Counted from the stretch's first letter, positions 4,753 to 22,340 are shown. The stretch is 38,040 nucleotides of DNA from an uncultured bacterium (GCA_963725235.1 CAVRXN010000001.1:1-38040), one strand, 5' to 3'. Numbers and translations are program-made. The notes: generated by a model not told the origin, from the letters alone.

Positions 4753-4869
4753 TCGCCACAAACTCAACAACCATAGGGCTTTTGAGGGGCAACCCGGCAT
4801 GGGCGCAACAGGGCTGGACTACCCCCGACACCTGCGGCTTGATTGACCTGTAGCGAAATTGAGAAAGAT

Positions 4870-9453: not shown

Positions 9454-12400
9454 ATGATATCAGAAGCAAAAAAACAATTGATCGATAAGAAGATCAAAAT
9501 ATTGTCCATCGTCGCTCTGGTCGCGGCGAGCATCGTCACGTGGTGGTTCTCGTATCGAACATGGCTTGGTGACCACCTACAACGACGCGATGTCACATTT
9601 GAATATCGCGCGATCCGTGGTCGATGGCAAGCAGCCGGGCCTCGCGCAGCTTGGCAGTGTTTGGTTGCCCCTCAATCATATCTTGAGCTGACGCTGATTT
9701 GGAACAACTGGGCGTGGCACTCCGGTTTTGCAGGTAGTTTTTTCTCAATGCTCGCCTATATCTTTTCCGCGATAGGAGTTTATAAGATAGTGAAAGAACT
9801 GACGAATAATTCATGGGCTTCCTTTCTCGGAGGATTGGTCTTCGCCCTGAATCCGAATATCCTTTATCTACAAACAACCCCGCTTACCGAACCGCTGTAT
9901 CTAGTGCTTGTTATCACTTCGATTTTCTTTTTGGTGAGATTCATGAAGACTGACAATCTCAAATACCTTCTCATTTCAGGTGTATTTGGTTTCCTGCAAG
10001 TGCTCGCTCGATATGATGGCTGGTTCGTGGTGTTCGTCGAGGGGCTGGTCATTATTTATCATCTGTGGTTTGCGAAAAAGGCTTCGCTGCAGGAAACAAT
10101 TGCGAAGTTTATGCTTTTCGCGATGCCCGTCATATTCGCGGCGGCATTATGGTTGGTATGGAACGCCTTGATTTTCGGAAGCCCTCTCTATTTCTTGCTC
10201 GGCCCCTATTCCGCGCACGCCCAACAAGCCACTATCCAAAGTGCCAGTGGTCTCATCACTAAGGGTAGTTGGCATTTCTCGCTGCTGGCTTTTTGGTACG
10301 CCGCCGTAGCGAACGTAGGACTCTTCGCAATTATACTGGCCGTCATCGGAACCGCCGCGTTCTTTTTTATAAAAAATAAAGACGCGAATTTCACGATGAA
10401 GCTCCTCGTTTTCATCCTGCTTATATCTCCAATCCTGTTCAACATCATCGCTCTCTATTTGGGTTTTTCCATATTAAATCTTCCGCAGTTGCATTGGAAT
10501 CCCTCACAAACGGCTGCGGGCCAATGGTTCAATGTCCGTTATGGAATCATGGCGCTCCCGCTCGTCGCCGTGTTCATTGGCCTCCTCGCTGATCTCCTCA
10601 AGAAAAAGATGTTTATCGTGCTTCTTGCGGTTCTCGTCGTCGCGCAATCATTCTTGATCTATCATCAAGGCCTCATCACCATCACCGACGGAACCATCGG
10701 TTCGAGCGCGTTCGTGGACAATGATGTCGCGCAGGTGCTACAAGACAATGTCCAGCCCGGGCAAAATGTCCTGATCTCCCTCTCGTTCTTCAATGCGGTG
10801 ATTTTCAAGAGCAATCTCCCGCTCGATGATTTCATTTACGAAGGCGTGAGCAACGAGTGGGATGCGGCCTTGGCGCAACCGCAGAAATACGCTACATGGC
10901 TTGTAATGGCGAACGGCAACGTGGGAGATCCCCTCTATACACAATTTCATGAAAATCAAGACGATGCGTTCCTCAAGAATTATAAACTTTTCTTTGCCGG
11001 TGCCAACGCGAATATTTATGAGCTCAGAAATACAGACGAGCTTTTTGTTTATGCCAATGGAACGGGCCTCACGCTAGGAGGAAGCGACCAGCCGTTTGTC
11101 GTAAAAGGCGTCAATTCGTACGATCTGGCTTATAAATCGGAAGACGCTATCGATGCCACATTAAAGAATTTGAGCAGCATCGGCGTGAATACGGTGCGTT
11201 TTTGGATGTTTGGGGACGGCAATTCCAACGGATTCCAACCGGCGGCGGGCATTATGAACGAGACGAGGTTCGAGAACGCCGATTATCTTATCGCCGACGC
11301 AAAGAAATATAACATCCGTCTCATCCCGGTTCTCGTGAATAATTGGACCGATTACGGAGGGGAACAGCAGTATCTGAAATGGGTCGGCCAAAACCCGAGC
11401 AACCAGGACGCCTTCTATACCAATCCGCAGGCCATCGCGCTTTTCGAAAATTACATCAATCATGTCATCACGCGGAAAAACACGATAACCGGCATAGCCT
11501 ACAACGACGATCCGACGATCATGGCGTGGGAAGTCGTAAACGAGCCGCGCTGGTCGGCTGACGACACCGGAGCGTTTGAGCAATGGTTTTCCACGATTGC
11601 CAATTACATCAGGCAGAAGGATTCCAATCACATTATTACCATGGAAACCGATACGACCTCCTTAAATCAAAACGGGACTTTTGCGGTCAATGACCTCTGC
11701 GCCACTTTATCCGTCGATTTGTGCACCGCCCATCTTTATCTTTACGATGGCAACGGAAATCTCATGTATGCCACACCGAATGAAATCACGAGCAATGTAC
11801 AGCAATATCTCAAGGACGCCGATGCGGATGGCAAGCCTTTTATTATGGGTGAAGTCGGAATTTCGAAAACAACTTCGCCATTCGGAGAGGCACCGCTCAC
11901 GATGCTAAAAAATATCGTGGATACCAATAGTAGTAGTTCAGGGATATTGATTTGGAACTGGTCTGATACCCCAGACGCTTCTTATGGTTTTTCACCGGAT
12001 GGCACGAACGGGCAATACACCCTCGCGGATTTGAGCAATGTGCTTGGGGGGATAGAACCGTCCACCGTTTATCTTGTACCGGAAAATTCAAACGAAGGAG
12101 GTTATGATGTCAGCGTTCCGGGAATGGGGCCAACCACAACCTCGACCATAGCGACGAGCAGCGATGAGACCGCGCCACTGTCCGTAGCCACTGCGACAAC
12201 CATTGCCATCACTCCCACGATAACGGCGACTACGACAATCGTTCTTCCGACGGTTACTTCTGAGGCGACGAAGACCGCAACAGTGGCTCCAGTGCCCACC
12301 GAACTTTCACTCCCATATTCGACAAGTGATTTTAATGCGGCTGATTGGGGAGATGGATGGGGCGCTTCGGGTGTAACGAACGGCGTCTTGACCGTCGGTT

Positions 12401-12873
12401 CAAATGCGCAAAACACGAGCGGTGGCATATTCTTGAACGACTCGAATTCTTGGCAGGATTATCTCATTACGGCGAACATCGACTGGGTCAAGGGAGAATT
12501 GTTTACCCTGATTGCGCGGCGAAGCGACAGCAATAATTATCTTGAATGCGTGTTCTCGTACAACGATAATGTATCCGAACATGTCGATATCAATCGGGTA
12601 TGGAACAACCAGAGCGAATCCATGGCCGAGGAGGGAACTATGTCAAATAATGAAAGCAATCCTATTTCAACCAATGATATGGAAGTTTCCATGCAGGTGC
12701 ATGGGAATGTAGTCGAATGCGGTATCAACAATGCCATGATTACCAACAACATCAGCATTGGCATGCCACCCATATTATTGAGCGGTGGCATTGGTTTCAG
12801 TACGTGGGATCCACAGGAAAACAATAGTGAGATCATCGTAAAAAATCTCTCTGTCACATATCCGCAATCATGA
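9454..12873 (+). CDS. tripartite protein: GT-C (PMT/ArnT-like, about 12 TM) + GH5 mannanase-like domain + Thr-rich linker + ConA/LamG-like C-terminal domain
   Basis: The N-terminal roughly 530 aa is polytopic membrane. The GH5 signatures are GVNTVRFWMFGDG, NNWTDYGG, IMAWEVVNEPR (acid/base Glu) and PFIMGEVG (nucleophile Glu). The linker is TTTSTIATSS..TPTITATTTIVLPTVTSEATKTATVAP. The C-terminal domain ends GGIGFSTWDPQENNSEIIVKNL. Codons about 40-78 appear to be read out of register (see findings). Confidence 0.8.
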   Translation: MISEAKKQLIDKKIKILSIVALVAASIVTWWFSYRTWLGDHLQRRDVTFEYRAIRGRWQAAGPRAAWQCLVAPQSYLELTLIWNNWAWHSGFAGSFFSMLAYIFSAIGVYKIVKELTNNSWASFLGGLVFALNPNILYLQTTPLTEPLYLVLVITSIFFLVRFMKTDNLKYLLISGVFGFLQVLARYDGWFVVFVEGLVIIYHLWFAKKASLQETIAKFMLFAMPVIFAAALWLVWNALIFGSPLYFLLGPYSAHAQQATIQSASGLITKGSWHFSLLAFWYAAVANVGLFAIILAVIGTAAFFFIKNKDANFTMKLLVFILLISPILFNIIALYLGFSILNLPQLHWNPSQTAAGQWFNVRYGIMALPLVAVFIGLLADLLKKKMFIVLLAVLVVAQSFLIYHQGLITITDGTIGSSAFVDNDVAQVLQDNVQPGQNVLISLSFFNAVIFKSNLPLDDFIYEGVSNEWDAALAQPQKYATWLVMANGNVGDPLYTQFHENQDDAFLKNYKLFFAGANANIYELRNTDELFVYANGTGLTLGGSDQPFVVKGVNSYDLAYKSEDAIDATLKNLSSIGVNTVRFWMFGDGNSNGFQPAAGIMNETRFENADYLIADAKKYNIRLIPVLVNNWTDYGGEQQYLKWVGQNPSNQDAFYTNPQAIALFENYINHVITRKNTITGIAYNDDPTIMAWEVVNEPRWSADDTGAFEQWFSTIANYIRQKDSNHIITMETDTTSLNQNGTFAVNDLCATLSVDLCTAHLYLYDGNGNLMYATPNEITSNVQQYLKDADADGKPFIMGEVGISKTTSPFGEAPLTMLKNIVDTNSSSSGILIWNWSDTPDASYGFSPDGTNGQYTLADLSNVLGGIEPSTVYLVPENSNEGGYDVSVPGMGPTTTSTIATSSDETAPLSVATATTIAITPTITATTTIVLPTVTSEATKTATVAPVPTELSLPYSTSDFNAADWGDGWGASGVTNGVLTVGSNAQNTSGGIFLNDSNSWQDYLITANIDWVKGELFTLIARRSDSNNYLECVFSYNDNVSEHVDINRVWNNQSESMAEEGTMSNNESNPISTNDMEVSMQVHGNVVECGINNAMITNNISIGMPPILLSGGIGFSTWDPQENNSEIIVKNLSVTYPQS

Positions 12874-13625
12874 GCAATCCATATCTTTCAATCGTCGTCC
12901 CAGCCTACAACGAAGCGGAGCGCATTCCTACTGCTTTGCTCGATATGGACAAGCACTTGCGGGCCGTCGATTTTTCATACGAAATAATCGTCGTCAATGA
13001 CGGGTCGAGCGACAAGACCGTTGAAGTCGTCCGTGGCTTCATAGGCCGCGTTCAAAATCTCAAGATTTTAGATCTCGGCAAGAATCAGGGCAAGGGCGCT
13101 GCCGTTCGTGCCGGTATGCTCGATGCGAGGGGAGCCATCCGCATTTTCACTGATGCCGATAATTCAACATCCATCGATCAATTTGAAAAAATGATGCCGT
13201 TTTTTGAGAAAGGATATGACGTTGTTATTGGTTCACGCACTATTAAAGGAGCTATCCTTGAGCCAGCGGAACCATGGTATCGAAGAATCGCTGGAAGAGG
13301 ATTAAACCTCGTCGTGCAGATGCTTTTGCTTCCCGGCATTTGGGATACGCAATGCGGCTTCAAGGCGTTCACGGCTGAAGCTGCCGAGCGCATATTCTCG
13401 AATTCAAAAATCATCGGTTGGGGATTCGATGTCGAGGCGTTGTCGCTTGCAAGAATTATGGGATACCGCATTAAAGAGATTCCCGTACGTTGGGTAAATG
13501 ATGAACGTACCCATGTGACGTCTTCGGCGGGATTCAAATTCTTACGCGATGTCAGTAAGGTGCGATGGCGGCTATGGACAGGTAATTATCCCAAAACCAA
13601 TTATGAAAAAAGAAACGCACAGTAA
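12870..13625 (+). CDS. polyprenyl-phosphate glycosyltransferase (GT2; DPM1 / ALG5 / GtrB-like)
   Basis: LSIVVPAYNEAERI, YEIIVVNDGSSDKT, KNQGKGAAVRAG, FTDADNS, VVIGSR, DTQCGFKAF and WGFDVEAL. The start overlaps the upstream stop (ATGA). Confidence 0.85.
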   Translation: MSNPYLSIVVPAYNEAERIPTALLDMDKHLRAVDFSYEIIVVNDGSSDKTVEVVRGFIGRVQNLKILDLGKNQGKGAAVRAGMLDARGAIRIFTDADNSTSIDQFEKMMPFFEKGYDVVIGSRTIKGAILEPAEPWYRRIAGRGLNLVVQMLLLPGIWDTQCGFKAFTAEAAERIFSNSKIIGWGFDVEALSLARIMGYRIKEIPVRWVNDERTHVTSSAGFKFLRDVSKVRWRLWTGNYPKTNYEKRNAQ

Positions 13626-14088
13626 GAAGAAGATTGTGGTTGCCGTAAGCGGGGGATTCGATCCGATCCATGTCGGCCATGTCCGTATGTTCGAGCGAGC
13701 CAAGGCGATGGGCGACACGCTCATCGTGATTTTGAACAATGACAACTGGCTTCGTGCGAAAAAGCAGCATATTTTCATGCCGGAAGATCAGCGTAAGGAA
13801 GTCATAGAAGCGCTTCGCGTCGTGGATGAGGTGGTGCTCACGAAGCATGGCGTGAACCCGACAGATATGAGCGTGTGTGCCGAACTCGCCGAGATCAAGC
13901 CCGACATTTTTGCGAACGGTGGTGATCGAAAGCTAGACAATATTCCCGAAGTGCCGGTCTGCGAGGAGATCGGCTGTCAGATGATCTTCAATATGGGCGA
14001 CGGGGGAAAGGTACAGTCGAGTTCGTGGCTGCTCAAAAAATATGTGGAAGCCGTGACGGAGAAACATTCTCATAAAAATCGAGAGTAA
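13603..14088 (+). CDS. cytidylyltransferase-family nucleotidyltransferase (RfaE domain II / TagD-like)
   Basis: VAVSGGFDPIHVGHV (HxGH-type motif), GDTLIVILNNDNWL, RVVDEVV, KPDIFANGGDR and KVQSSSWLLKK. Track ORF trimmed to ATG 13603. Confidence 0.75.
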   Translation: MKKETHSKKKIVVAVSGGFDPIHVGHVRMFERAKAMGDTLIVILNNDNWLRAKKQHIFMPEDQRKEVIEALRVVDEVVLTKHGVNPTDMSVCAELAEIKPDIFANGGDRKLDNIPEVPVCEEIGCQMIFNMGDGGKVQSSSWLLKKYVEAVTEKHSHKNRE

Positions 14089-14092
14089 AATA

Positions 14093-15376
14093 ATGAAGAA
14101 AAATAAATCACAAGGAGTTGCTATTATTGGCCTTGGTTACGTCGGCTTGCCGTTGGCTCTTTTGGCTAGCCGCAAAGGATACAGCGTCATCGGCATCGAT
14201 TTAGATAAGCGGAAGGTTGCCGCTATTAACGCCAAGGAGTCGTTACTTAGCGATGCAGCGATTGCCAAGCAACTCAAAAAGTCATCACTCACAGCGACCG
14301 ACGATTTCGATGTCCTCGAAAATGTCGAAACGATCATCGTATGCGTTCCGACGCCGGTCGACGAAAAACACCATCCCGACCTTCGTGCCATAGAAGGAGC
14401 AAGTTCAGCAATTGCAAAAAATTTGAAACGCGGTCAACTTATCATACTCGAATCAACGGTGAATCCAGGCGTATGCGATGAGATTGTTATCCCAATCCTT
14501 GAAAAGTCCGGCCTCACGGCGGGAAAAGATTTTTATGTCGCGCATTGTCCGGAGCGCATCAATCCTGGCGACTCGAAGTGGAACGTGGAAAATATCCCGC
14601 GCGTCGTCGGGGGATTGAATAAGGAGAGCTTGAAGCGAGCGGCGAAGTTCTATCGTTCAATTATTAACGCTCCCGTAAAGGAGATGGGTTCACTCAAGGA
14701 AGCGGAAGCCGTAAAGATTGTCGAGAATTCGTTCCGCGATGTGAATATTGCATTCGTGAACGAACTCGCGATGTCATTCGCAAAGCTTGGCATCGATGTT
14801 GTGAACGTAATTGATGGCGCGGCGACCAAACCTTTCGCTTTTATGCCGCATTATCCAGGCGCGGGAGTTGGCGGCCACTGCATCCCGGTCGATCCGTATT
14901 ATTTGATCGACTACGCAAAAAAGAACGGCTTCCACCATGAATTGATGAAGATTTCTCGGCATGTGAATGAAGGGATGCCGCAGTTCACTGTGAAGATTTT
15001 AGAAAAAGCATTGAAGGCGAAAGGCAAGAAGCTCAAAGGATCGAAAATCGCCGTCCTTGGCATTTCATACAAGCCCAACGTGGGGGATTGCCGCGAGAGT
15101 CCGTCACTCAAGATCATTGGACTCTTGCAAAAGAAAGGCGTTATAGTCCATGCCTATGATCCCTATGTCCCTGAGAAATCCAATGTAGCGAATTTAAACG
15201 CGGCACTCTCCGGCGCAGATGCCGCGATCATCGCAACTGCGCATCGAGAATTCAGCACGTTGATGCCGAAAGATTTTCTCAAAAACAATGTTCCTATCGT
15301 GATCGACGGGAGAAATTGTTTACCGAAGGATAACTTCCGAAAAGCCGGAATGACCTATTGGGGCATCGGAAGATAA
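14093..15376 (+). CDS. NDP-sugar 6-dehydrogenase (UDP-glucose/GDP-mannose dehydrogenase family; resembles the UDP-N-acetylhexosamine branch WbpA/TviB/WecC)
   Basis: Rossmann N-terminus VAIIGLGYVGLPLA, the catalytic Cys motif GGHCIPVDPYYL, and the C-terminal UDP-binding domain ISYKPNVGDCRESP. Confidence 0.9.
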   Translation: MKKNKSQGVAIIGLGYVGLPLALLASRKGYSVIGIDLDKRKVAAINAKESLLSDAAIAKQLKKSSLTATDDFDVLENVETIIVCVPTPVDEKHHPDLRAIEGASSAIAKNLKRGQLIILESTVNPGVCDEIVIPILEKSGLTAGKDFYVAHCPERINPGDSKWNVENIPRVVGGLNKESLKRAAKFYRSIINAPVKEMGSLKEAEAVKIVENSFRDVNIAFVNELAMSFAKLGIDVVNVIDGAATKPFAFMPHYPGAGVGGHCIPVDPYYLIDYAKKNGFHHELMKISRHVNEGMPQFTVKILEKALKAKGKKLKGSKIAVLGISYKPNVGDCRESPSLKIIGLLQKKGVIVHAYDPYVPEKSNVANLNAALSGADAAIIATAHREFSTLMPKDFLKNNVPIVIDGRNCLPKDNFRKAGMTYWGIGR

Positions 15377-15400
15377 GACTTCACGATTGCAACTTATGAG

Positions 15401-16747
15401 ATGACCAACAAATCTGACCTTCGTCGATTCGCAGAGCTGGCAGTATTGATGGCGATACTCTTGGTTTTGCTAGGAAAGATATTTTTCGGACAGGAGAACG
15501 GACTGACTGCTTTATTTATCTATGGACTTTTGGTTACGTCGATCGTTTTGCTTACGTTCATTTGTGCATTTTTGTATTATGTAGACCCCTATGAAACGGC
15601 GGTTATTAAAGATGTCCCTGGGGGAAAGTATTTTGTGAGTTGTATGGTTGCCGTAAAAGACGAAGAAGAGAATATTGCGCGTTGCATTGATTCAATGCTC
15701 AATCAAACATATCAGAGGAAAGAGGTGATTGTTGTTAATGATGCAAGCACTGATGGTACGCTCGCGATTCTGAAAGAATATGAGCGAGCTGGAAAGATCA
15801 TCCTGATCGATCTCAAAGTAAATGGCGGCAAAAAGCGGGCATTATCGCGTGCTATGGAGATTGCCAAAGGCGATATTTTTGCCCACACCGATAGCGATTC
15901 CGTATGGGCTCCAGACGCTATTGAAAAAATTGAAAAGATATTCGAATCAGATCCAGATATCGGTGCTGTGAGCGGTCATGGCCGGGCGTTGAACGGCGAC
16001 CATAATTTTTTGACAAAAATTCAGGATTCTTGGATGGAGGGCCAATTTTCCATGCGAAAAGCTTTCGAAAGCGTGTTCAATTCAGTCACGTGCGTATCCG
16101 GTCCGCTCGCCGTTTTTAGGAAGGAAGCCATCTTTAACCTTATTCCGGCATGGGAGAATGATTATTTCTTGGGTCAAGAATTTAAGTTTGCCACCGATCG
16201 GACGATGACGGGATTTGTCTTGGGGCATAAAACCGTTAGCGATAAATTAAAGAAGAAACACAGCGATTCTCATTTCGTCAAGCTCGTGGATTATCCTGCG
16301 AGAGATTGGAAGGTGGTCTATTCGAAGGCGGCGCGTTCGTGGACAATCGTGCCCGATACATTTGCGCGTCTGATGAAGCAACAAGTAAGGTGGAAAAAAA
16401 GTTTTATCAGGAACGTTTTTTTCACTGGATTTTTCTATTGGAAAAAACCACTCCCCGTCGCTTTCGTTTATTATGCACATATTCTGTTCGTCGTATGCGG
16501 CCCATTCATCGTCATCCGTCATTTGATCTACCTGCCACTCCAGGGAGATTTCCTTGCCGCAGTCCTTTATATAGCGGGTATTTGTTTCATCGGCTATATG
16601 TTCGGTCTGGCGTATAAGTTGGAAAATCCCGATAGCGATCGTTGGATCTATCGTCCATTCATGAGCCTCATGTCCACGTTCGTATTCTCGTGGTTATTAT
16701 ACTATTCCGCCGCAACCATCAAAAAAATGACATGGCACCGAGGATAA
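15401..16747 (+). CDS. class I hyaluronan-synthase (HasA)-like processive GT2
   Basis: Collinear with my recollection of streptococcal HasA over the whole length. Matching blocks: VKDEEENIARCIDSMLNQTY..VIVVNDASTDGT, NGGKKRAL, HTDSDSVW, SGHGRALN, CVSGPLAVFRKEA, ATDRTMT (HasA has GDDRCLT), QQVRWKKSF (QxxRW), C-terminal TM helices, and ATIKKMTWHRG (HasA has TIKNTEWGTR). Confidence 0.8.
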   Translation: MTNKSDLRRFAELAVLMAILLVLLGKIFFGQENGLTALFIYGLLVTSIVLLTFICAFLYYVDPYETAVIKDVPGGKYFVSCMVAVKDEEENIARCIDSMLNQTYQRKEVIVVNDASTDGTLAILKEYERAGKIILIDLKVNGGKKRALSRAMEIAKGDIFAHTDSDSVWAPDAIEKIEKIFESDPDIGAVSGHGRALNGDHNFLTKIQDSWMEGQFSMRKAFESVFNSVTCVSGPLAVFRKEAIFNLIPAWENDYFLGQEFKFATDRTMTGFVLGHKTVSDKLKKKHSDSHFVKLVDYPARDWKVVYSKAARSWTIVPDTFARLMKQQVRWKKSFIRNVFFTGFFYWKKPLPVAFVYYAHILFVVCGPFIVIRHLIYLPLQGDFLAAVLYIAGICFIGYMFGLAYKLENPDSDRWIYRPFMSLMSTFVFSWLLYYSAATIKKMTWHRG

Positions 16748-19700
16748 AATTTACGTTCAAAGAGGGCGTTGTTCTTGCACTTGTGATTGCATCGTTCTTT
16801 TTGGTTCTCGGTAAGTACTTATTTCCATCGATAGCTAACTATCTGGTTATTCGAAAAACCGAGGCTGCGTTATCCGTAAAGTTGCAACCAGCGCAAAATT
16901 GTCCGAGCGATGAGGTTACTATTAAGTTAAGCGGTGGAGTTATTTGCAGGGATCAGGCTGCTTCTTCAACACTCCTAACAATATTTGATACTTATCAGCT
17001 CGATCCCAATGGGAAGGAGCAAATGTTCTCCTTTATAAAGACCGACGATGCCTCTCAGACGTTGATGATAGCGAATGATTACTTGAATAACGAATATTAT
17101 GTGGATCGGTATAATCCCGTGGCAATTACTAATTTAACGTGGGATGAGGATCCCTATAATCAGGAATATTGGCGCTTTATCTTTTATAGCTTACGTGACG
17201 AAGAGTATCTCCTTCAAGCGTGGCAAGAGACGGGCAATCCGGCATATGAGCAGAAATTCACGGAGATTCTACAAAGTTTTTTAACGACGGGGACAAACCA
17301 ACCGTTGGCATGGAGTGATCCGCATGCGGTTGCTTTTCGGACCATGGTTCTCGTGGATGCATGGTGGGAATTGCGGGAATATAATTCATTGCCTGTTGAA
17401 TTAAGCAACCAGATATTGCAATCGCTTGAACAAAACGGCCAGTATCTCGCTGACCCCAGTAATTATGAGCCAGCTTATAATCATGCCATCAATGAAGCGG
17501 GCGCCTTGTTTTTGCTTTCCGTTAATTTTCCGGACTTGCCAAACGCCAATCAATGGCAAACGATATCCGAAGATAGGTTGACGAGCAGCTTGGACACTGC
17601 CGTGGATAGCGATGGTGTTTTGCTCGAGAATTCATCGTATTACCATTTTTATGCTCTCGAAAAATATTGGGAGATTTTTCAATACGCAAAAGCGCAGGGC
17701 ATCATATTCGCTGCCGATGTTCAGGATAAACTTCAAAAAATGATAGCATATGCAACGTATGTTCTGCAGCCCGACGATCAAGTCCCGTTGTTAGGAGCTT
17801 CTATAGAAAGGAAGGTTAATTTTGCAGGCGTCGATAGAGATATCGCATTGGCGAATCCGAATTTCGAATATGTTTTGACGCAAGGAAAAAAAGGAACACA
17901 ACCGTCGCAATTAAGTGTTCATTATCAGACCGCCGGAGAGACCATTATGCGTTCGGGATGGGGAAGTGGCACCGATTTTGCAAATCAAACCCAATTGATT
18001 TTTAATGTTGGGCCATTTCGGACCAATCACAGCCAACTCGACGGACTCGCATTTAGCTTATACGGCCAAGGAATTGCCTTAATGCCGGGATCAGGATTAT
18101 ATACTTACGTTTCGAGTACGGCCAAAGATTATTTCTGGGGAACATCTTCCCATAATACGGTCGTTGTTGACGGAGGCAACCAAAGTGAAGGTAGTCCGAC
18201 TGAGGGAACATTTAAAGAGGGCGATGGATACACCTATGAAACTGGCGAATCCAATCTTTATAATGGCGTGACGCATGACCGTGCGATAGCCCTGCTCGGA
18301 CAAAACCTCGTTCTCGTCGTCGATAATTTGAAATCCTTGAATGCTCATACCTATGACCAAATGTTCCATCTTTTTCCGGGCGCGCAGATAGGGCAGAATG
18401 GTCTGGACATCACCGGCTACAGTGCAAGTAGCAGTAATGAGCAGATAACGATACATCAGCTTATTACAAATGGCGTAAACGTTAGCACGACCATCAATCA
18501 AATGAATCCGCTCGATGGCGTTTGCTCCGAACAATATGGAGTGCTCGTTCCGTGCTATTCTGTCGATTATCGACAGATAGGGGAAAATGCAGAATTCGTA
18601 ACGCTTTTGGAAATTGGTAAGCCAAATTCTGATCTAAAGGTGCAACTATCATCGGATGGCAGTCAGGTTAATATCTCCGAAGGCGGAGAAAGTTATAATG
18701 TCGCTATTGGAGATATTCCTCAGAACGAACAGCCCGTGAAGGTTTTAAATAACCAAACGATGACCCAGACGGGAGATGAGGCGATTTCTGAGTTCGCCGA
18801 TCCGAGTTCGTGGGAAAAAATAAGTCAGAGAATTAATAACGAAGGAACGATAGCATCGATAAACGCTTCCAGCGGTCCTATTCTGGCTCTAACAAGCCCC
18901 AGAAACGGATCTTGGGTCGAAGCAGTAAAAGAAATTCCGTTGAATCTGACAGATCAGAATATCAATCTTGAAATGAATATTCAGAATTTTTCAAACCTTA
19001 AAAACGCTGAACTGCTTTTGTCCACCAATGACTGGACGGGATCTGCAGCTATACGTTTGAATGATTTTTATTCTGAATCTAGTTCTAATCAGTGGACTGA
19101 TATTAGCCTTGGAAAAGGTCAATTAAGAGACGTAGGAGGAGAGTGGGTCATAAGTGGCACAGGTTTTGACTGGTCGAATATCGATCAAGTGGCATTTAAG
19201 ATCAACTCATCCCCAGGCGCTGCTTCAACTTTGCAAGTGAATGATTTTTCATTAATCCCTGGGCAATCGCAGGGAACGGTTGTCGTCGTCTTTGATAACG
19301 GTTATTCGTCGATTTTGCCAGCCGCAAAAATTATGCAGAACCTCGGACTTAAAGGTAACGTCGGCGCGATTAGTGGTTATCTCTCAAGGGATGCCGCCGG
19401 GCGTCTTAGTGTGTCAGATTTGCAGGATCTTCAGAATAACTATGGATGGGATGTAATCAATGAATCATGGTATCATTACGACCCTATCACCGAATATTAC
19501 GATACAAATAATCTGGCCGGTTTGAGTCAGGATATTTTGAAAGGGGCGGAGTATTTAACAGAGAATGGTATCAATACAGACCAGAATTGGTATATCTATC
19601 CCGACGGTGTTACGAATTCATCCATTGAAGCAGTGGTTGGTCAATATTATAAATTTGCCCGTACGACTTCTGCTGCTCCTGAAGTGTATCCTTTCGGAGA

Positions 19701-20055
19701 CCCCCTAGCGGTGAAAACATTTCCTACGATTTCCGATACTACTCCTCCCGAAACCGTAATAAAGGCGATTTACGATGCGCAAAAATATGGCCTCGCTTTA
19801 TTTTTAACTTTCCGCCAGATTCAGACCTCGCCCAGCGATCCTGCGGGATATCCACTGTCTAATTTTCAGGAAATTATGCAGTATATCGCGCAAAATAAAG
19901 TGAACGTAGAAACCTTTAGCGGGCTTGATGCATCAGATGGAATTAGCCAAAATACTTTAGTATTAGCTGAGCATCAACCAGAGCAAATAGGCTTGCAAGT
20001 AACCCCAAAAAGCACTATTTTTGAACGATTGCTGGCTTTTGCTGGAATCTTTTAA
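16732..20055 (+). CDS. membrane-anchored polysaccharide lyase (heparinase II/III-like toroid + beta-sandwich) + CBM-like domain + degenerate NodB (CE4)-like domain
   Basis: Track ORF trimmed to ATG 16732 (MAPRIKF.. then one TM). Lyase signatures are YNHAINEAGAL, NSSYYHFYALE and NHSQLDGLAFSLYGQGIALMPGSGLYTY..GTSSHNTVVVDGGNQ (Hepar_II_III pattern). The C-terminal part, VVVVFDNGYSS..LQDLQNNYGWDVINESWYH.., aligns with the NodB-like domain of the next gene. Confidence 0.8.
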   Translation: MAPRIKFTFKEGVVLALVIASFFLVLGKYLFPSIANYLVIRKTEAALSVKLQPAQNCPSDEVTIKLSGGVICRDQAASSTLLTIFDTYQLDPNGKEQMFSFIKTDDASQTLMIANDYLNNEYYVDRYNPVAITNLTWDEDPYNQEYWRFIFYSLRDEEYLLQAWQETGNPAYEQKFTEILQSFLTTGTNQPLAWSDPHAVAFRTMVLVDAWWELREYNSLPVELSNQILQSLEQNGQYLADPSNYEPAYNHAINEAGALFLLSVNFPDLPNANQWQTISEDRLTSSLDTAVDSDGVLLENSSYYHFYALEKYWEIFQYAKAQGIIFAADVQDKLQKMIAYATYVLQPDDQVPLLGASIERKVNFAGVDRDIALANPNFEYVLTQGKKGTQPSQLSVHYQTAGETIMRSGWGSGTDFANQTQLIFNVGPFRTNHSQLDGLAFSLYGQGIALMPGSGLYTYVSSTAKDYFWGTSSHNTVVVDGGNQSEGSPTEGTFKEGDGYTYETGESNLYNGVTHDRAIALLGQNLVLVVDNLKSLNAHTYDQMFHLFPGAQIGQNGLDITGYSASSSNEQITIHQLITNGVNVSTTINQMNPLDGVCSEQYGVLVPCYSVDYRQIGENAEFVTLLEIGKPNSDLKVQLSSDGSQVNISEGGESYNVAIGDIPQNEQPVKVLNNQTMTQTGDEAISEFADPSSWEKISQRINNEGTIASINASSGPILALTSPRNGSWVEAVKEIPLNLTDQNINLEMNIQNFSNLKNAELLLSTNDWTGSAAIRLNDFYSESSSNQWTDISLGKGQLRDVGGEWVISGTGFDWSNIDQVAFKINSSPGAASTLQVNDFSLIPGQSQGTVVVVFDNGYSSILPAAKIMQNLGLKGNVGAISGYLSRDAAGRLSVSDLQDLQNNYGWDVINESWYHYDPITEYYDTNNLAGLSQDILKGAEYLTENGINTDQNWYIYPDGVTNSSIEAVVGQYYKFARTTSAAPEVYPFGDPLAVKTFPTISDTTPPETVIKAIYDAQKYGLALFLTFRQIQTSPSDPAGYPLSNFQEIMQYIAQNKVNVETFSGLDASDGISQNTLVLAEHQPEQIGLQVTPKSTIFERLLAFAGIF

Positions 20056-20063
20056 TACATCCA

Positions 20064-22283
20064 ATGGATAAGATACGAAAACATTTCTTAGCAGTTATCT
20101 TCGCTACAACTAGCATTGTGTTGTTAGTTATTTTTGCTGCAGGGGCTTTATATATAAAGAACTATGAGGAAAACTTTTCACAAGGTAATGCGCCTTCTGC
20201 TGGATGGAATATGCTCGCCGATGTTGCATCAATATTTGTTCAGCCACAAACAACAGTCACCGGCAGTACGACTGCTGTTGCAAGTAATCCTGGTATCTTC
20301 GCCGACCTGTTTTTGCCGTCGTCGAATAATGTCATTTCTGCGATGCTTAAAAAAATGAACCTATCTTCCTTGTTTGCACAGAATTCATCCACCGCTTCCT
20401 CATCTGGTTATTCCTCGCCGATATTGACAGGACCACTCCCAGCGCCTTCTGCAACCTCAATACAAAATCTCGGTTCTCAATCGGTCTTCTCGAATTGGAT
20501 TGTGGGACCTTATTCAACTTCAACTCTTGTCGCCGATACTTCCTTATATACCGAAGGGGATCAATCGTTGTCGTTAACGACCGATGGCATGGGCGATCCT
20601 GCGGATGCGAGAGTCGTCAATCAGGGATCCTATAATCTTACGGATAAATATCTCGAAATTTGGATGCGCGTGAGTACGACGACAAATATTGATGATTTGT
20701 GGTTTTTGGCGAGTTCAGATAATTTGCACGCTAATTATTACACATGGAGGCTTAACAGGCAGATAGTGAGCAGTCCTGACGAATCGGAGATTCAGCCCGG
20801 CGAATGGGTGCCGATCGTGCTCACGTTTGATTCTGATGACTTGAACATGGTTGCGACGGGCGAACCTAATATAACGGCCTTGAATTCTTTCGAGCTGCAC
20901 ATAAGCGACAGGGGACAAGGACCACTTACGGTATGGCTTGGGGGTATTTCGGCGGTCGCCGAACCATCGCAGGGTGCACTCACTATCGTCCTTGATAATG
21001 GTTGGAATTCGGAATATACACTCGCCATGCCTACATTGACGAAATATGGATTTCCGGCGGTTATTGCGGAAATTCCGGAAACGGCGAATGATCCAGCATT
21101 TATGACCACCCAACAGCTTCAAGATCTGCAGAATAACTTAGGGTGGGATATCGCATGCCACACATGGGATCACGTTTATCAGCTCGGATTATCGAGTGCG
21201 ACGATACCAATCATGGATAGCGAATTTACACAGTGCAAAAACTGGCTTACGCAAAATGGATTAGCTAAAGCAGGGAACATTCTTGTGTGGCCTGACGGCA
21301 GCAATTCACCTGCGGCGATAGCAGAGGCAAGCAAATATTTCGTTGCAGCGCGTGGCATTATTGGTACCATATTCAATACGCTTCCAGTTGCAAATCCGAT
21401 GCTTCTTTACGCCACGGAATTCGGTGGTTCGACTCCGACCTCGACCTTGGATGCCGACGTTGATCGCTGCATGGCAAACCACGAATGGTGCATATTTTAC
21501 GGACATATCATTACGACTTCAACTCCGGAAAATCAAAATCAGTATTCGAGTGCGAGCTTCAACGACTTCGTCGCGCATATCGCGCAGGTCGGCATACCTG
21601 TAAAAACCATTACCCAAGTCCTTGGAAATGAGCCGCAGCTGCCTGCGCCATCGGAGGCATCCCTGCAGTCGCCACCCGGTGCGCCGAGTATCATTACGTC
21701 GAGCGTCCCGACGTCAACACTCACCTTGCCACTTCCATACAGCGAAAGTAATTTTACGAACGATCCGAATTGGCAAAATAATTGGGGAACGATGACTATT
21801 GACTCATCTGGCGTTATGGATCTGGGAGCGAACGCCTCGACTACCGGCGGATCTATAGTTCTTCAGAATTCAGAAGGCTGGACTGATTATAAATTCAACA
21901 TGACGTTTGATTGGATTAAGGGGCAAGCCGTGAATCTCAATGCTCGGTATACCGATGATAACGACTATGCGACGTGCGAGTTCAGCGCTTCAACTCCGGG
22001 TAGTGTGAATATCGAACTTGAACAATACATGAATGGCGTTCGTTATAATCTTACGATTGGGAGTATCTCCAATGACAACGGAATCGGTGATACAAATATA
22101 GACGCGTACATCAAAGTGCAGGGGACAACGGAAACTTGTTCATTCAATAATCATGTCGTATCGAGTGCCGGTTATACTTTGAACCCTCCATTCAGGGGTG
22201 GCATCGGCTTCTCAACCTGGGATCCGACGATCAACAACAGCCAGATTGTTGTTAAGAGCGTTGCGGCGAGCGAAAATTATTGA
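20064..22283 (+). CDS. membrane-anchored Ser/Thr-rich stalk + CBM-like + NodB (CE4)-like deacetylase domain + ConA/LamG-like C-terminal domain
   Basis: N-terminal TM helix. NodB-like blocks are TIVLDNGWNS, LQDLQNNLGWDIACHTWDH (HxxxH), VWPDGS and IFYGHI. The C-terminal domain (LPYSESNF..WTDYKFNMTFDWIKG..GGIGFSTWDPTINNSQIVVKS) is paralogous to the C-terminus of the 9454 gene. Confidence 0.75.
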   Translation: MDKIRKHFLAVIFATTSIVLLVIFAAGALYIKNYEENFSQGNAPSAGWNMLADVASIFVQPQTTVTGSTTAVASNPGIFADLFLPSSNNVISAMLKKMNLSSLFAQNSSTASSSGYSSPILTGPLPAPSATSIQNLGSQSVFSNWIVGPYSTSTLVADTSLYTEGDQSLSLTTDGMGDPADARVVNQGSYNLTDKYLEIWMRVSTTTNIDDLWFLASSDNLHANYYTWRLNRQIVSSPDESEIQPGEWVPIVLTFDSDDLNMVATGEPNITALNSFELHISDRGQGPLTVWLGGISAVAEPSQGALTIVLDNGWNSEYTLAMPTLTKYGFPAVIAEIPETANDPAFMTTQQLQDLQNNLGWDIACHTWDHVYQLGLSSATIPIMDSEFTQCKNWLTQNGLAKAGNILVWPDGSNSPAAIAEASKYFVAARGIIGTIFNTLPVANPMLLYATEFGGSTPTSTLDADVDRCMANHEWCIFYGHIITTSTPENQNQYSSASFNDFVAHIAQVGIPVKTITQVLGNEPQLPAPSEASLQSPPGAPSIITSSVPTSTLTLPLPYSESNFTNDPNWQNNWGTMTIDSSGVMDLGANASTTGGSIVLQNSEGWTDYKFNMTFDWIKGQAVNLNARYTDDNDYATCEFSASTPGSVNIELEQYMNGVRYNLTIGSISNDNGIGDTNIDAYIKVQGTTETCSFNNHVVSSAGYTLNPPFRGGIGFSTWDPTINNSQIVVKSVAASENY

Positions 22284-22340
22284 TGAGGCCAGCATCCTCA
22301 TACGTCATGTTAATAGCCGATTTTGTAATATAATTAGGGG

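What the first reader, a model, noticed from the sequence alone, without database searches (positions are those of the whole stretch)
13603..20055. HasA-like synthase, uronate-forming dehydrogenase and a heparinase-II/III-type lyase in one transcription unit: a self-contained glycosaminoglycan-like make-and-trim module
The 448-aa GT2 is collinear with my recollection of class I hyaluronan synthase from the N-terminal TM helices to the C-terminal TIKKMTW tail. Shared blocks include the DSD, GPLAVFRKE and QQVRWKKSF motifs.

It sits directly after an NDP-sugar 6-dehydrogenase. That enzyme's GLGYVGLPLA and GGHCIPVDPYYL motifs look more like the UDP-GlcNAc/ManNAc dehydrogenase branch (WbpA/TviB/WecC) than like HasB/Ugd. 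This hints at an N-acetyl-hexosaminuronic acid rather than plain glucuronic acid.

The next gene overlaps the synthase by 16 nt. It encodes a membrane-anchored lyase with the Hepar_II_III signature NHSQLDG..GSGLYTY..SSHNTVVVDG. Polysaccharide lyases act only on uronate-containing polymers, so the dehydrogenase and the lyase corroborate each other.

The lyase carries a CBM-like domain and a NodB-like domain in which expected CE4 residues are replaced: FDNG instead of FDDG, NESWYH instead of HxxxH, and FR instead of the distal His. That domain may be a non-catalytic binding module.
Basis: partly seen in the sequence, partly recalled or inferred. Interest (0 to 1): 0.75.

Follow-up and report, generated by a model that had tools for sequence, protein, structure and literature searches.

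The report
Acidic chitin-like polymer synthase, lyase module
This is a real, tightly packed gene set for making, exporting, cutting and de-acetylating an acidic amino-sugar surface polymer, and the same uncharacterised set recurs in many tiny symbiotic bacteria, archaea and actinobacteria.

Summary
All quoted motifs, gene limits and the 16-nt synthase/lyase overlap are in the sequence.

- **Synthase (15401-16747).** It is a membrane GT2 whose closest solved relatives, by sequence and by predicted fold, are class I hyaluronan synthases. It reaches no curated family cut-off.
- **Dehydrogenase (14093-15376).** It lies in the UDP-HexNAc branch, not the HasB/Ugd branch.
- **Lyase-like protein (16732-20055).** It is membrane-anchored and PL12 heparinase-III-like. 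It keeps the Asn/Tyr/His catalytic set (N250, Y304, H433). It also carries a beta-sandwich domain and a CE4 domain that has lost three of five catalytic residues.

In 59 related loci with both flanks readable, 53 have a CE4 domain downstream, 39 have the dehydrogenase upstream and 28 have the lyase-CE4 fusion. These loci come from CPR bacteria, DPANN and other archaea, Actinomycetota and Chloroflexota. Most relatives have an intact CE4 domain. Some synthases are fused to a GlmU-type UDP-GlcNAc pyrophosphorylase.

The best reading is a synthase-dependent system for a GlcNAc/HexNAc-uronate polymer, processed outside the cell by a PgaB/PelA-like bifunctional enzyme. The product is unknown, and a lyase cannot be told from an epimerase here. 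I found no paper on the prokaryotic module. The closest described analogue is the fungal and algal-virus cluster of a chitin-synthase-like gene, a UDP-GlcNAc dehydrogenase and a deacetylase.

The parts
14093..15376 (+). NDP-sugar 6-dehydrogenase of the UDP-HexNAc branch (WecC/Cap5O/TviB-like). It has the GxGxxG NAD motif and the catalytic Cys in GGHCIPVDP.
   Evidence: Pfam detects all three domains. TIGR03026 scores 429 bits. Archaeal UDP-ManNAc DH scores 321, WecC 249 and TviB 248, all above the Ugd-type models and all below their equivalog cut-offs. PDB: 4r16 272 bits, HasB 1dli 61 bits. A homologue lies directly upstream of the synthase in 44 of 75 loci where the upstream flank is readable.
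15401..16747 (+). Membrane-embedded processive GT2 synthase with class I hyaluronan-synthase-like architecture: two N-terminal TM helices, a GT-A domain, then an interface helix and three long C-terminal helices (predicted TM).
   Evidence: Pfam Glycos_transf_2 and Chitin_synth_2. The DSD, GPLAVF, TDR and QQVRW motifs align to CvHAS DSD, GPLGAY, DDR and QQTRW. AF2 model pLDDT 82. Foldseek top 13 hits are all HAS. The family has 1178 hits, 55-83% identical across CPR, DPANN and Actinomycetota.
16732..20055 (+). Type-II membrane-anchored multidomain processing enzyme. Its start overlaps the synthase stop by 16 nt.
   Evidence: ORF and overlap. 301 homologues, most of 1030-1450 aa, carry Hepar_II_III, and most also carry Polysacc_deac_1. 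AF2 model pLDDT 84 with an N-terminal helix at residues 9-30.
17059..18651 (+). PL12 heparinase-III-like lyase domain (about aa 110-640) with N250, Y304 and H433.
   Evidence: Pfam PF16889 and PF07940. PDB 5jmd 2e-21 and 4mmh 8e-20. Foldseek top 5 hits are all HepIII, E 1e-28 to 1e-25. Y304 and H433 are invariant and N250 is at least 90% conserved in 20 homologues. Reference residues are from PMC12088678.
18829..19266 (+). Beta-sandwich middle domain (about aa 700-845), possibly carbohydrate-binding.
   Evidence: The AF2 model shows only beta strands at 706-843. The region is conserved in the family alignment, for example W805, F812 and W814. No Pfam match. A binding function is inferred.
19267..19956 (+). 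Degenerate CE4 (NodB-fold) domain: FDNG for FDDG, NESWYH for NHSxxH, TFRQI for TFHRI.
   Evidence: Family alignments. Fold match to S. lividans CE4 2cc0, TMt 0.74. No Pfam hit in this copy, but PF01522 is present in most homologues.
20064..22283 (+). Second membrane-anchored CE4 protein plus a C-terminal ConA-like domain. It keeps the catalytic Asp, HxxxH, Arg and the distal His, but has Asn in place of the metal-binding Asp (LDNG).
   Evidence: Pfam Polysacc_deac_1 3.4e-9. Motif alignment. A CE4-family domain lies downstream of the synthase in 57 of 63 loci where the downstream flank is readable.
23060..24079 (-). Membrane-anchored LamG/ConA-like protein. It is a recurrent partner of the module, here convergent on the opposite strand.
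   Evidence: Pfam Laminin_G_3 2.4e-10. 31-55% identical homologues occur in 17 loci, and the corresponding ORF cluster c3 usually lies just after the lyase. LamG is fused to the C-terminus of lyase homologues of about 1440 aa.
13603..14088 (+). Cytidylyltransferase-like protein (RfaE domain II / TagD-like). It is in the same gene string but is not a conserved partner.
   Evidence: Pfam CTP_transf_like 5.5e-14. TIGR02199 scores 81 bits, below its cut-off. No homologue in 80 related loci at 1e-8.
9454..13625 (+). Upstream genes of the same string: a PMT_2 (GT-C) + GH5 mannanase-like + ConA-like fusion (9454-12873) and a Dpm1-like GT2 (12870-13625). Probably a separate mannose-based module.
   Evidence: Pfam PMT_2 and GT2. 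PDB 1rh9 endo-beta-mannanase 4e-48. PMT-like homologues lie upstream of the synthase in several loci, and L018 has a PMT+GH8 fusion.

Best explanation
This is a synthase-dependent surface or exopolysaccharide system. The steps below are marked as shown or inferred.

1. **Precursor supply (inferred from family).** The dehydrogenase oxidises a UDP-N-acetylhexosamine at C6. The substrate is most simply UDP-GlcNAc, because no 2-epimerase is conserved nearby. The product would be UDP-GlcNAcA.
2. **Polymerisation and export (architecture shown, chemistry inferred).** The HAS-like GT2 synthase polymerises UDP-GlcNAc and/or the UDP-HexNAc-uronate at the membrane. It pushes the chain out through its own channel, as class I hyaluronan synthases do.
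3. **Cleavage outside the cell (residues shown, activity inferred).** A membrane-anchored enzyme, translationally coupled to the synthase, cleaves the chain at 4-linked uronate residues by beta-elimination using Tyr304, His433 and Asn250. This would set chain length or release the polymer.
4. **De-N-acetylation (inferred).** In most relatives the fused CE4 domain would de-N-acetylate the chain. This is the same division of labour as PgaB or PelA, with a lyase in place of a hydrolase. In this window the fused CE4 domain is catalytically dead, so it may only bind the polymer. The neighbouring CE4 gene is the likelier deacetylase.

The closest relatives are CPR bacteria, which are commonly held (my background knowledge, not tested here) to lack an outer membrane. 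No outer-membrane export component was seen in the gene string.
For: - **Gene string.** Gaps are 4, 24 and 8 nt, and the synthase and lyase overlap by 16 nt.
- **Synthase.** It resembles HAS by sequence and by fold: the top 13 hits have TMq 0.65-0.77, against about 0.5 for chitin and cellulose synthases. The D, DxD, xDR and QxxRW motifs are kept.
- **Link to UDP-GlcNAc.** Synthase homologues of about 700 aa carry an N-terminal GlmU-type uridylyltransferase domain (TIGR01173, 129 bits).
- **Dehydrogenase.** Those tested (this window plus eight synthase-adjacent ones from CPR/Saccharibacteria, an archaeon (Bathyarchaeia), Actinomycetota and Chloroflexota) all rank UDP-ManNAc/GlcNAc dehydrogenase models above Ugd models.
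- **Lyase domain.** The best sequence and fold matches are PL12 HepIII, and the published catalytic Tyr/His/Asn are conserved in the family.
- **Extracytoplasmic location.** The lyase has an N-terminal TM helix; CE4b has a hydrophobic N-terminal stretch in its sequence.
- **Conserved synteny in 59 two-sided loci.** CE4 occurs in 53, the dehydrogenase in 39 and HepIII-like in 28, always with CE4. Fusion of HepIII and CE4 is the rule.
- **CE4 motifs.** Most homologues have canonical motifs. The window's fused copy is degenerate, and CE4b keeps four of five.
- **Closest described analogue.** A chitin-synthase-like gene, a UDP-GlcNAc 6-dehydrogenase and a deacetylase cluster together in fungi and algal viruses (PMC4059230, PMC5122149, PMC7053769). 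The phaeovirus member ESV-1-84 is Foldseek hit 3 in the viral library.
Against: - No product chemistry is known for any member of the family.
- The synthase and the dehydrogenase are far below every curated equivalog cut-off.
- 20 of 59 loci lack an adjacent dehydrogenase, and 31 of 59 lack the lyase. A uronate may therefore be optional, or its genes may lie elsewhere.
- The dehydrogenase-lyase association is not significant (p = 0.10).
- No NodC or PgaC structure was among the Foldseek hits listed, so 'closest to HAS' is relative to what is solved.
- The fold cannot separate a lyase from a C5-epimerase. Human DS-epimerase 1 is also hit, at 3e-14.
- CE4b has Asn at the metal-binding Asp position, so its activity is uncertain.
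- The organism is not identified. No marker genes are in the window.
Confidence: 0.6

Rival explanations
1. The system makes chitin or chitosan only, in the manner of NodC/NodB. The synthase makes a pure beta-1,4-GlcNAc chain or oligomer that CE4 enzymes de-acetylate. The dehydrogenase feeds another pathway, and the HepIII-like domain has a non-lyase or unrelated role.
For: - CE4 is the most conserved neighbour, in 53 of 59 loci.
- GlmU fusions point to UDP-GlcNAc.
- The best NCBIfam models are PgaC (123 bits) and NodC (109 bits), and Pfam detects Chitin_synth_2.
- 14 of 59 loci have neither a dehydrogenase nor a lyase nearby.
Against: - A UDP-HexNAc-type dehydrogenase lies immediately upstream in 44 of 75 loci, in bacteria and archaea alike.
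- The HepIII-like domain is fused to CE4, translationally coupled to the synthase, and keeps the lyase catalytic residues.
- The fold is closer to HAS than to chitin synthases.
Confidence: 0.15
2. The HepIII-like domain is a polymer-level C5-epimerase rather than a lyase. It would work like dermatan-sulfate or heparosan epimerases, for example converting ManNAcA to L-GulNAcA in an N-acetylated, alginate-like chain.
For: - Lyases and C5-epimerases of this fold share C5 proton abstraction by Tyr/His (established knowledge).
- Human DS-epimerase 1 (6hzn) is a Foldseek hit at 2.7e-14.
- The gene sits in a biosynthetic context rather than a catabolic one.
Against: - HepIII lyases match far better, at 1e-28, and at sequence level at 2e-21.
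- All three HepIII lyase residues, including the Asn neutraliser, are kept.
- Dedicated cleaving enzymes are normal parts of synthase-dependent systems such as AlgL, BcsZ, PgaB and PelA (established knowledge).
Confidence: 0.1
3. The lyase is an attack or foraging enzyme aimed at a host's or neighbour's uronate-containing polymer. It would be relevant to an episymbiotic lifestyle and would not trim the cell's own product.
For: - The family is common in episymbiotic CPR and DPANN lineages.
- The lyase is surface-anchored with a putative binding domain.
Against: - The 16-nt overlap with the synthase, and the constant position directly after it across phyla.
- The same arrangement occurs in free-living Actinomycetota.
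- None of the recurrent neighbour gene clusters I annotated is an unsaturated-uronate hydrolase or a sugar-uptake gene.
Confidence: 0.07
4. The module is a true hyaluronan (GlcA-GlcNAc) operon, with the synthase a HasA orthologue.
For: - HAS is the closest solved structure.
- JGI automatically names distant relatives, about 35% identical, 'hyaluronan synthase'.
Against: - The dehydrogenase is not of the HasB/Ugd type: 61 bits to HasB against 272 to a UDP-ManNAcA dehydrogenase.
- Identity to HAS is only 16-20%.
- CE4 deacetylases and a PL12-type lyase, rather than PL8, are not part of has operons (established knowledge).
Confidence: 0.05

Closest known systems
Class I hyaluronan synthases and the hasABC operon (Streptococcus HasA; Chlorella-virus and vertebrate HAS)
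   Same: - A single membrane GT2 polymerises and translocates the chain.
- The overall fold is the same (TMq 0.65-0.77), and the DxD, GPLxxY/F, xDR and QQxRW(S/K)KS motifs are shared.
- A sugar-nucleotide 6-dehydrogenase is encoded next to the synthase.
   Different: - Identity is only 16-20%.
- The dehydrogenase belongs to the UDP-HexNAc branch, not the UDP-glucose (HasB) branch.
- A lyase and CE4 deacetylases are encoded in the unit.
- The product is unknown.
Fungal and algal-virus cluster of a chitin-synthase-like gene (CHS8, CV/ESV class), a UDP-GlcNAc 6-dehydrogenase (UNGD) and a polysaccharide deacetylase
   Same: - The same three enzyme types are clustered, and a HAS-like character of the synthase has been noted (PMC4059230, PMC5122149, PMC7053769).
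- ESV-1-84 is a top structural match in the viral library.
   Different: - Those clusters are eukaryotic or viral, and no lyase is described in them.
- This module is prokaryotic, and in about half the loci it carries a PL12-like lyase fused to the CE4 domain.
- Sequence-level kinship between the two synthase groups was not tested here.
- The product is unknown in both.
Bifunctional modifying enzymes of synthase-dependent exopolysaccharides: PgaB (PNAG) and PelA (Pel)
   Same: - An extracytoplasmic two-domain enzyme joins a CE4-type deacetylase to a chain-cleaving domain.
- It is encoded next to the GT2 (Pga) or other synthase (established knowledge; PMC12022489 for PelA).
   Different: - The cleaving domain here is a polysaccharide lyase (PL12-like) rather than a glycoside hydrolase. 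This implies a uronate-containing chain.
- The domain order is lyase first, then CE4.
- The protein has a single N-terminal membrane anchor.
Alginate system (AlgD dehydrogenase, Alg8 GT2 synthase, AlgL lyase)
   Same: The logic is the same: a sugar-nucleotide 6-dehydrogenase, a membrane GT2 synthase and a dedicated lyase in one cluster (established knowledge).
   Different: - Alginate uses GDP-mannose chemistry, a PL5 lyase, a beta-helix epimerase, and outer-membrane export with c-di-GMP control.
- None of these is seen here.
PL12 heparinase III (Pedobacter HepC, Bacteroides BT4657)
   Same: - Pfam domains, fold and the catalytic Asn/Tyr/His are shared.
   Different: - Identity is about 17-18%.
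- The score is far below the HepC equivalog cut-off: 96 against 700 bits.
- The protein is membrane-anchored, fused to a beta-sandwich and a CE4 domain, and sits in a biosynthetic rather than a catabolic context.

Membership tests
Class I hyaluronan synthase (HasA/HAS) | GT2 GT-A domain with the D, DxD, catalytic xDD/xED and QxxRW motifs | tested here: met
   DSD, TDR and QQVRW align to CvHAS DSD, DDR and QQTRW. They are invariant in 23 family members.
Class I hyaluronan synthase (HasA/HAS) | Membrane architecture: N-terminal TM pair plus C-terminal interface and TM helices forming the channel | tested here: met
   AF2 model (pLDDT 82). The top 13 Foldseek PDB hits are all HAS, with TMq up to 0.77 and rmsd about 3 A over about 445 columns.
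Class I hyaluronan synthase (HasA/HAS) | Partner UDP-glucose 6-dehydrogenase (HasB/Ugd) supplying UDP-GlcA | tested here: not met
   The adjacent dehydrogenase scores 61 bits to HasB (1dli), against 272 to a UDP-ManNAcA dehydrogenase. Ugd-type NCBIfam models rank lowest.
Class I hyaluronan synthase (HasA/HAS) | Alternating transfer of GlcNAc and GlcA to give hyaluronan | not testable with these tools
   This needs an enzyme assay and product analysis.
NodC / PgaC (curated NCBIfam equivalogs) | Score above the curated equivalog cut-off | tested here: not met
   PgaC_IcaA scores 123 bits against a cut-off of 422. NodC scores 109 against 550.
PL12 heparinase III | Hepar_II_III_N and Hepar_II_III_C domains above the Pfam gathering scores | tested here: met
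   65.2 bits against 22, and 83.8 bits against 24.
PL12 heparinase III | Catalytic Tyr and His with the Asn neutraliser (Tyr294, His424, Asn240 in 4MMH) | tested here: met
   Y304, H433 and N250 align to them with identical spacing. They are invariant or at least 90% conserved in the family. Reference residues are from PMC12088678.
PL12 heparinase III | Alpha-toroid plus beta-sandwich fold | tested here: met
   The Foldseek top 5 hits are all HepIII, with TMt 0.69-0.72 and E 1e-28 to 1e-25.
PL12 heparinase III | HepC equivalog score and heparan-sulfate lyase activity | tested here: not met
   NF045573 scores 96 bits against a cut-off of 700. Activity is not testable here.
CE4 / NodB polysaccharide deacetylase (fused domain, 19267-19956) | Asp-His-His metal triad with the catalytic Asp and His (motifs TFDDG, HSxxH, LxH) | tested here: not met
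   The domain has FDNG, NESWYH and TFRQI where homologues have FDDG, NHSxxH and TFHRI. There is no Pfam PF01522 hit. The fold is retained (2cc0, TMt 0.74).
CE4 / NodB polysaccharide deacetylase (gene 20064-22283) | Pfam PF01522 above its cut-off, plus the catalytic motifs | tested here: inconclusive
   PF01522 scores 37.1 bits against 23.1. The catalytic Asp, HxxxH, Arg and distal His are present, but the metal-binding Asp is Asn (LDNG).
UDP-N-acetylhexosamine 6-dehydrogenase (WbpA/TviB/WecC/Cap5O) | Three-domain UDPG_MGDP_dh enzyme with the catalytic Cys, closer to HexNAc than to Glc dehydrogenases | tested here: met
   Pfam detects all three domains. The Cys lies in GGHCIPVDP. The ranking of models and PDB hits agrees.
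UDP-N-acetylhexosamine 6-dehydrogenase (WbpA/TviB/WecC/Cap5O) | Equivalog-level assignment (GlcNAc or ManNAc substrate) | tested here: not met
   321 bits against 750, 249 against 459, and 248 against 592. The substrate is undetermined. None of the recurrent neighbour clusters I annotated is a 2-epimerase.
Synthase-dependent exopolysaccharide systems (PNAG, Pel, alginate, cellulose type) | A membrane synthase encoded with a dedicated extracytoplasmic chain-cleaving and/or deacetylating enzyme | tested here: met
   Gene order and overlaps. Conservation in 53 of 59 loci for CE4 and 28 of 59 for the lyase.
Synthase-dependent exopolysaccharide systems (PNAG, Pel, alginate, cellulose type) | c-di-GMP receptor, and a TPR or beta-barrel outer-membrane export component | tested here: not met
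   No such domains were found in the window's gene string or in the recurrent neighbours. This fits a cell without an outer membrane (inference).

The most novel reading that the evidence does not exclude
The module makes a natural polymer that has not been described. It would be an acidic analogue of chitin or hyaluronan, built wholly or partly of beta-linked N-acetylglucosaminuronic (or mannosaminuronic) acid. A fused lyase/deacetylase would tune its chain length and charge. It would serve as a surface coat shared by episymbiotic CPR bacteria, DPANN archaea and some actinobacteria through inter-domain gene transfer. It would also be the prokaryotic counterpart of the unexplained fungal and algal-virus CHS-like/UNGD/deacetylase cluster.
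Probability: 0.3. Interest if true: 0.8.

Novelty: new variant of a known kind. Interest (0 to 1): 0.62.

Why it matters
CPR bacteria and DPANN archaea live attached to other cells, and almost nothing is known about their surface polymers. This synthase is highly conserved, at 55-70% identity between bacteria and archaea. It comes with a compact precursor and processing toolkit that predicts a defined, testable product.

If the product contains N-acetylhexosaminuronic acid, three things would follow:
- It would be a new class of biopolymer with an enzyme set ready for biotechnology: a synthase, a lyase and a deacetylase for charged chitin-like materials.
- It would suggest a function for the unexplained fungal and chlorovirus CHS8/UNGD/CDA cluster.
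- It would add a lyase-based member to the PgaB/PelA type of bifunctional polymer-processing enzymes.

Tried and rejected
- **Viral relatives.** A scan of viral contigs with the synthase profile found no relative.
- **Source of the window.** An exact look-up of the window's synthase found no record, so the sample and organism could not be named. The window has no tRNA genes and no taxonomic marker genes.
- **Promoters and terminators.** The promoter scan (36 sites against 31 expected) was at chance level and the terminator scan (31 against 20) only modestly above it, with no site that separates the genes. They say nothing about the transcription unit.
- **Synteny by tblastn.** The lyase C-terminal half gave no hits at 1e-8, and a CE4 profile built from the fused family missed the stand-alone CE4 genes. 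A second profile was needed.
- **Dehydrogenase-lyase co-occurrence.** I expected it to be significant. It is only a trend, at p = 0.10.
- **Actinobacterial dehydrogenases.** I considered that these (37-43% identical) might be Ugd-type. They are not; they rank with the UDP-HexNAc dehydrogenases.
- **Literature.** Five searches found no paper on a prokaryotic dehydrogenase-synthase-HepIII/CE4 module. The Actinoplanes EPS paper concerns unrelated clusters.
- **True hyaluronan operon.** Rejected because of the dehydrogenase type.
- **CE4b in the PDB.** A sequence search with CE4b gave nothing.

Full report
**1. What is in the sequence**

ORF listing shows a string of co-directional genes from 9454 to 22964 with very small gaps.

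| Coordinates | Product (Pfam, unless stated) | Junction with previous gene |
|---|---|---|
| 9454-12873 | PMT_2 + GH5 mannanase-like (PDB 1rh9, 4e-48) + ConA-like C-terminus | start of string |
| 12870-13625 | Dpm1-like GT2 | 4-nt overlap |
| 13603-14088 | cytidylyltransferase-like | 23-nt overlap |
| 14093-15376 | sugar-nucleotide 6-dehydrogenase | 4-nt gap |
| 15401-16747 | 448-aa GT2 synthase | 24-nt gap |
| 16732-20055 | 1107-aa Hepar_II_III protein | 16-nt overlap |
| 20064-22283 | 739-aa CE4 protein | 8-nt gap |
| 22341-22964 | 207-aa orphan | 57-nt gap |

- The raw sequence confirms the 16-nt overlap. The synthase ends ...ATG ACA TGG CAC CGA GGA TAA at 16747, and the lyase ATG is at 16732. 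The closest homologue, P0122, also starts MAPRI.
- Consensus scans for promoters and terminators neither support nor contradict a single transcription unit: promoters are at chance and no site separates the genes. The case for one unit rests on spacing and on synteny.

**2. The synthase**

- Pfam gives Glycos_transf_2 (3.7e-31) and Chitin_synth_2 (1.7e-15).
- The best curated NCBIfam models are PgaC (123 bits) and NodC (109 bits). Both are far below their cut-offs, so the protein belongs to no curated equivalog.
- Against all PDB sequences, the best hits are Chlorella-virus HAS (7e-17) and Xenopus HAS1. DSD, GPLAVF, ATDR and QQVRWKKS align to DSD, GPLGAY, GDDR and QQTRWSKS.
- An AlphaFold2 model built from 23 family members (pLDDT 82, pTM 0.80) has two N-terminal TM helices, a GT-A domain and four C-terminal helices.
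- The top 13 Foldseek PDB hits are all class I HAS (E 5e-19 to 3.5e-16, TM-score normalised to the query (TMq) 0.65-0.77). Chitin synthases (about 1e-11, TM about 0.5) and BcsA (about 0.48) follow.
- In the viral structure library the top hits include ESV-1-84, a phaeovirus chitin-synthase-like protein.
- 'HAS-like' is therefore supported as an architecture. 'HasA family member' is not.
- No NodC or PgaC structure was among the Foldseek hits listed, so HAS is closest only among solved structures.

**3. The dehydrogenase**

- It has three UDPG_MGDP_dh domains, the GxGxxG motif and the catalytic Cys in GGHCIPVDP.
- NCBIfam ranks the models in this order. No equivalog cut-off is reached.

| NCBIfam model | Bits |
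|---|---|
| archaeal UDP-ManNAc DH | 321 |
| WecC | 249 |
| TviB | 248 |
| AglM | 198 |
| TuaD | 174 |
| Ugd | 57 |

- PDB scores are 272 bits to 4r16 (UDP-ManNAcA DH), 234 to Cap5O and only 61 to HasB (1dli).
The choice between GlcNAc and ManNAc remains open.
- None of the recurrent neighbour clusters I annotated is a 2-epimerase. This mildly favours UDP-GlcNAc as the direct substrate (inference).

**4. The lyase-like protein**

- Hepar_II_III_N and Hepar_II_III_C score above their Pfam gathering cut-offs. PDB sequence hits are all heparinase III: 5jmd at 2e-21 and 4mmh at 8e-20.
- In the 4mmh alignment, the residues at chain positions 216, 270 and 400 pair with N250, Y304 and H433 of the window protein. 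Their spacing (54 and 130) equals that of Asn240, Tyr294 and His424. PMC12088678 lists these as the HepIII neutraliser and general base/acid.
- In 20 homologues, Y304 and H433 are invariant and N250 and H251 are at least 90% conserved.
- The AF2 model (pLDDT 84) shows an N-terminal helix (residues 9-30), an alpha-toroid plus beta-sandwich (to about 690), a further beta-sandwich (about 700-845) and an alpha/beta C-terminal domain.
- Foldseek gives HepIII as hits 1-5 (1e-28 to 1e-25). PL39, PL15, PL17, PL35 and PL33 lyases follow. Human dermatan-sulfate epimerase 1 appears at 2.7e-14. S. lividans CE4 (2cc0, TM-score normalised to the target (TMt) 0.74) matches the C-terminal domain.

**5. The CE4 domains**

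- The family consensus has the canonical motifs FDDG, NHSxxH, YKFAR and TFHRI.
- The window protein and its nearest relative P0122 have FDNG, NESW(Y/T)H and TFRQI (DFYDI in P0122). P0210 is similarly degenerate.
It is a derived state of a normally intact deacetylase domain, since PF01522 is detected in most of the 120 listed homologues.
- The next gene, 20064-22283, is a paralogous CE4 (PF01522, 3.4e-9). It keeps the catalytic Asp, HxxxH, Arg and the distal His, but has Asn for the metal-binding Asp. It is the likelier active deacetylase here (inference).

**6. Conservation**

- The synthase has 1178 hits at E <= 1e-5, and the best 120 are 58-83% identical. An all-against-library search finds 230 clusters at 50% identity with E <= 1e-30.
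- A scan of one genome per species gave 199 loci. The best 80 come from Saccharibacteria, Paceibacteria, Zambryskibacteria, Moraniibacteriota, Berkelbacteria, Nano-, Woese-, Pace- and Iainarchaeota, Bathyarchaeia, Methanoperedens, Actinomycetota (including cultured Williamsia and a Streptomyces), Chloroflexota and others.
- Of the 59 loci with both flanks readable, 53 have a CE4-family domain downstream, 39 have the dehydrogenase immediately upstream, and 28 have the HepIII-like domain, always together with CE4.
- Three architectures recur: dehydrogenase-synthase-lyase/CE4 (like the window), dehydrogenase-synthase-CE4, and synthase-CE4. They are patchy but clade-structured on a synthase tree, and the window's clade is lyase-positive throughout.
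- A LamG-like protein follows the lyase in many loci and is fused to it in homologues of about 1440 aa. The window has it at 23060-24079 on the other strand.
- The eight neighbouring dehydrogenases tested, from CPR/Saccharibacteria, an archaeon (Bathyarchaeia), Actinomycetota and Chloroflexota, are all of the UDP-HexNAc type.
- Synthase homologues of about 700 aa carry an N-terminal GlmU-type uridylyltransferase domain. This fusion ties the synthase to UDP-GlcNAc.
- The dehydrogenase-lyase association is only a trend: 22 of 28 against 17 of 31, p = 0.10.

**7. Mechanism**

- The best-supported model is a synthase-dependent system. A UDP-HexNAc is oxidised to the uronate. The HAS-like synthase polymerises and exports a GlcNAc/HexNAc-uronate chain.
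- Outside the cell, a membrane-anchored bifunctional enzyme cleaves at 4-linked uronates by beta-elimination. In most relatives it also de-N-acetylates.
- This is the design of PgaB and PelA, with a lyase in place of a hydrolase. It also follows the dehydrogenase + GT2 + lyase logic of alginate.
- Shown: domain identities, catalytic residues, architecture and synteny.
- Inferred: substrates, linkage, lyase (rather than epimerase) chemistry, and the role in chain-length control or release.

**8. Comparison with the literature**

- Fungal and algal-virus genomes hold a cluster of a chitin-synthase-like gene (CHS8, CV/ESV classes, noted to resemble HAS), a UDP-GlcNAc 6-dehydrogenase and often a polysaccharide deacetylase. 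Its product is unknown (PMC4059230, PMC5122149, PMC7053769).
- I found no paper on the prokaryotic module or on a HepIII-CE4 fusion next to a synthase.

**9. Verdict**

It needs these corrections:
- The system is HAS-like but is not HasA.
- The deacetylase is the core partner.
- The unit extends to 22283, and probably includes the LamG gene.
- The cytidylyltransferase is incidental.
- The product, and the choice between lyase and epimerase, are untested.

It is a new variant of a known kind of system, and it is widespread in poorly understood lineages.

Noticed in passing
window 7938-9441: A second processive-type GT2 (Glyco_tranf_2_3, with QRSRW) is split over three reading frames: 7938-8294, 8377-8907 and 8956-9441. 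It is either a pseudogene or an assembly frameshift. Intact counterparts of 489-706 aa lie upstream of the synthase in L005, L020 and L026.
   Followed up: partly
window 9454-13625: A PMT_2 (GT-C) membrane domain is fused to a GH5 endo-beta-mannanase-like domain (1rh9, 4e-48) and a ConA-like C-terminal domain. A Dpm1-like GT2 follows with a 4-nt overlap. This looks like a second, mannose-based 'make-and-trim' pair. At the same position L018 has PMT+GH8 fusions.
   Followed up: partly
window about 12300-12873 and about 21750-22283: The C-terminal ~180 aa of the PMT-GH5 protein and of the CE4 protein 20064-22283 are the same domain (..GGIGFSTWDP..NNS.I.VKN/S..). It also ends the stand-alone CE4 proteins of other loci, such as L020. 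It has no Pfam match.
   Followed up: no
window 3248-3895, 4843-5748, 6109-6645: A DnaB_C fragment, a tyrosine integrase and a second integrase-like ORF lie 5' of the polysaccharide genes. They look like mobile-element remnants. GC is 52-53% over 3-7 kb, against 43-50% in the cluster.
   Followed up: no
window 25711-26349 and 30417-31475: Two Fic/DOC-domain proteins lie downstream of the cluster.
   Followed up: no
P0024, P0026, P0038, P0041 (synthase homologues of about 700 aa): These have an N-terminal GlmU-type UDP-GlcNAc pyrophosphorylase domain fused to the synthase. A stand-alone NTP-transferase gene follows the module in L024, L048 and L068.
   Followed up: partly
P0151 (1327 aa); L017 12911-13912; L020 12903-13721: A conserved 270-330 aa domain (..LRVDGA.VIKKK...AGIRTDFMDVEF.N..) has no Pfam match. 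It is a separate gene after the CE4 gene in lyase-less loci, and it is fused to the C-terminus of the lyase-CE4 protein in Magasanikbacteria.
   Followed up: no
L001-L080: The synthase is 55-70% identical between CPR bacteria and DPANN, Bathyarchaeia and Methanoperedens archaea. This is much higher than expected for vertical descent and implies repeated inter-domain transfer of the module.
   Followed up: partly
P0244 (1107 aa): A synthase homologue (47% identity) has about 190 extra N-terminal and about 470 extra C-terminal residues of unknown nature.
   Followed up: no
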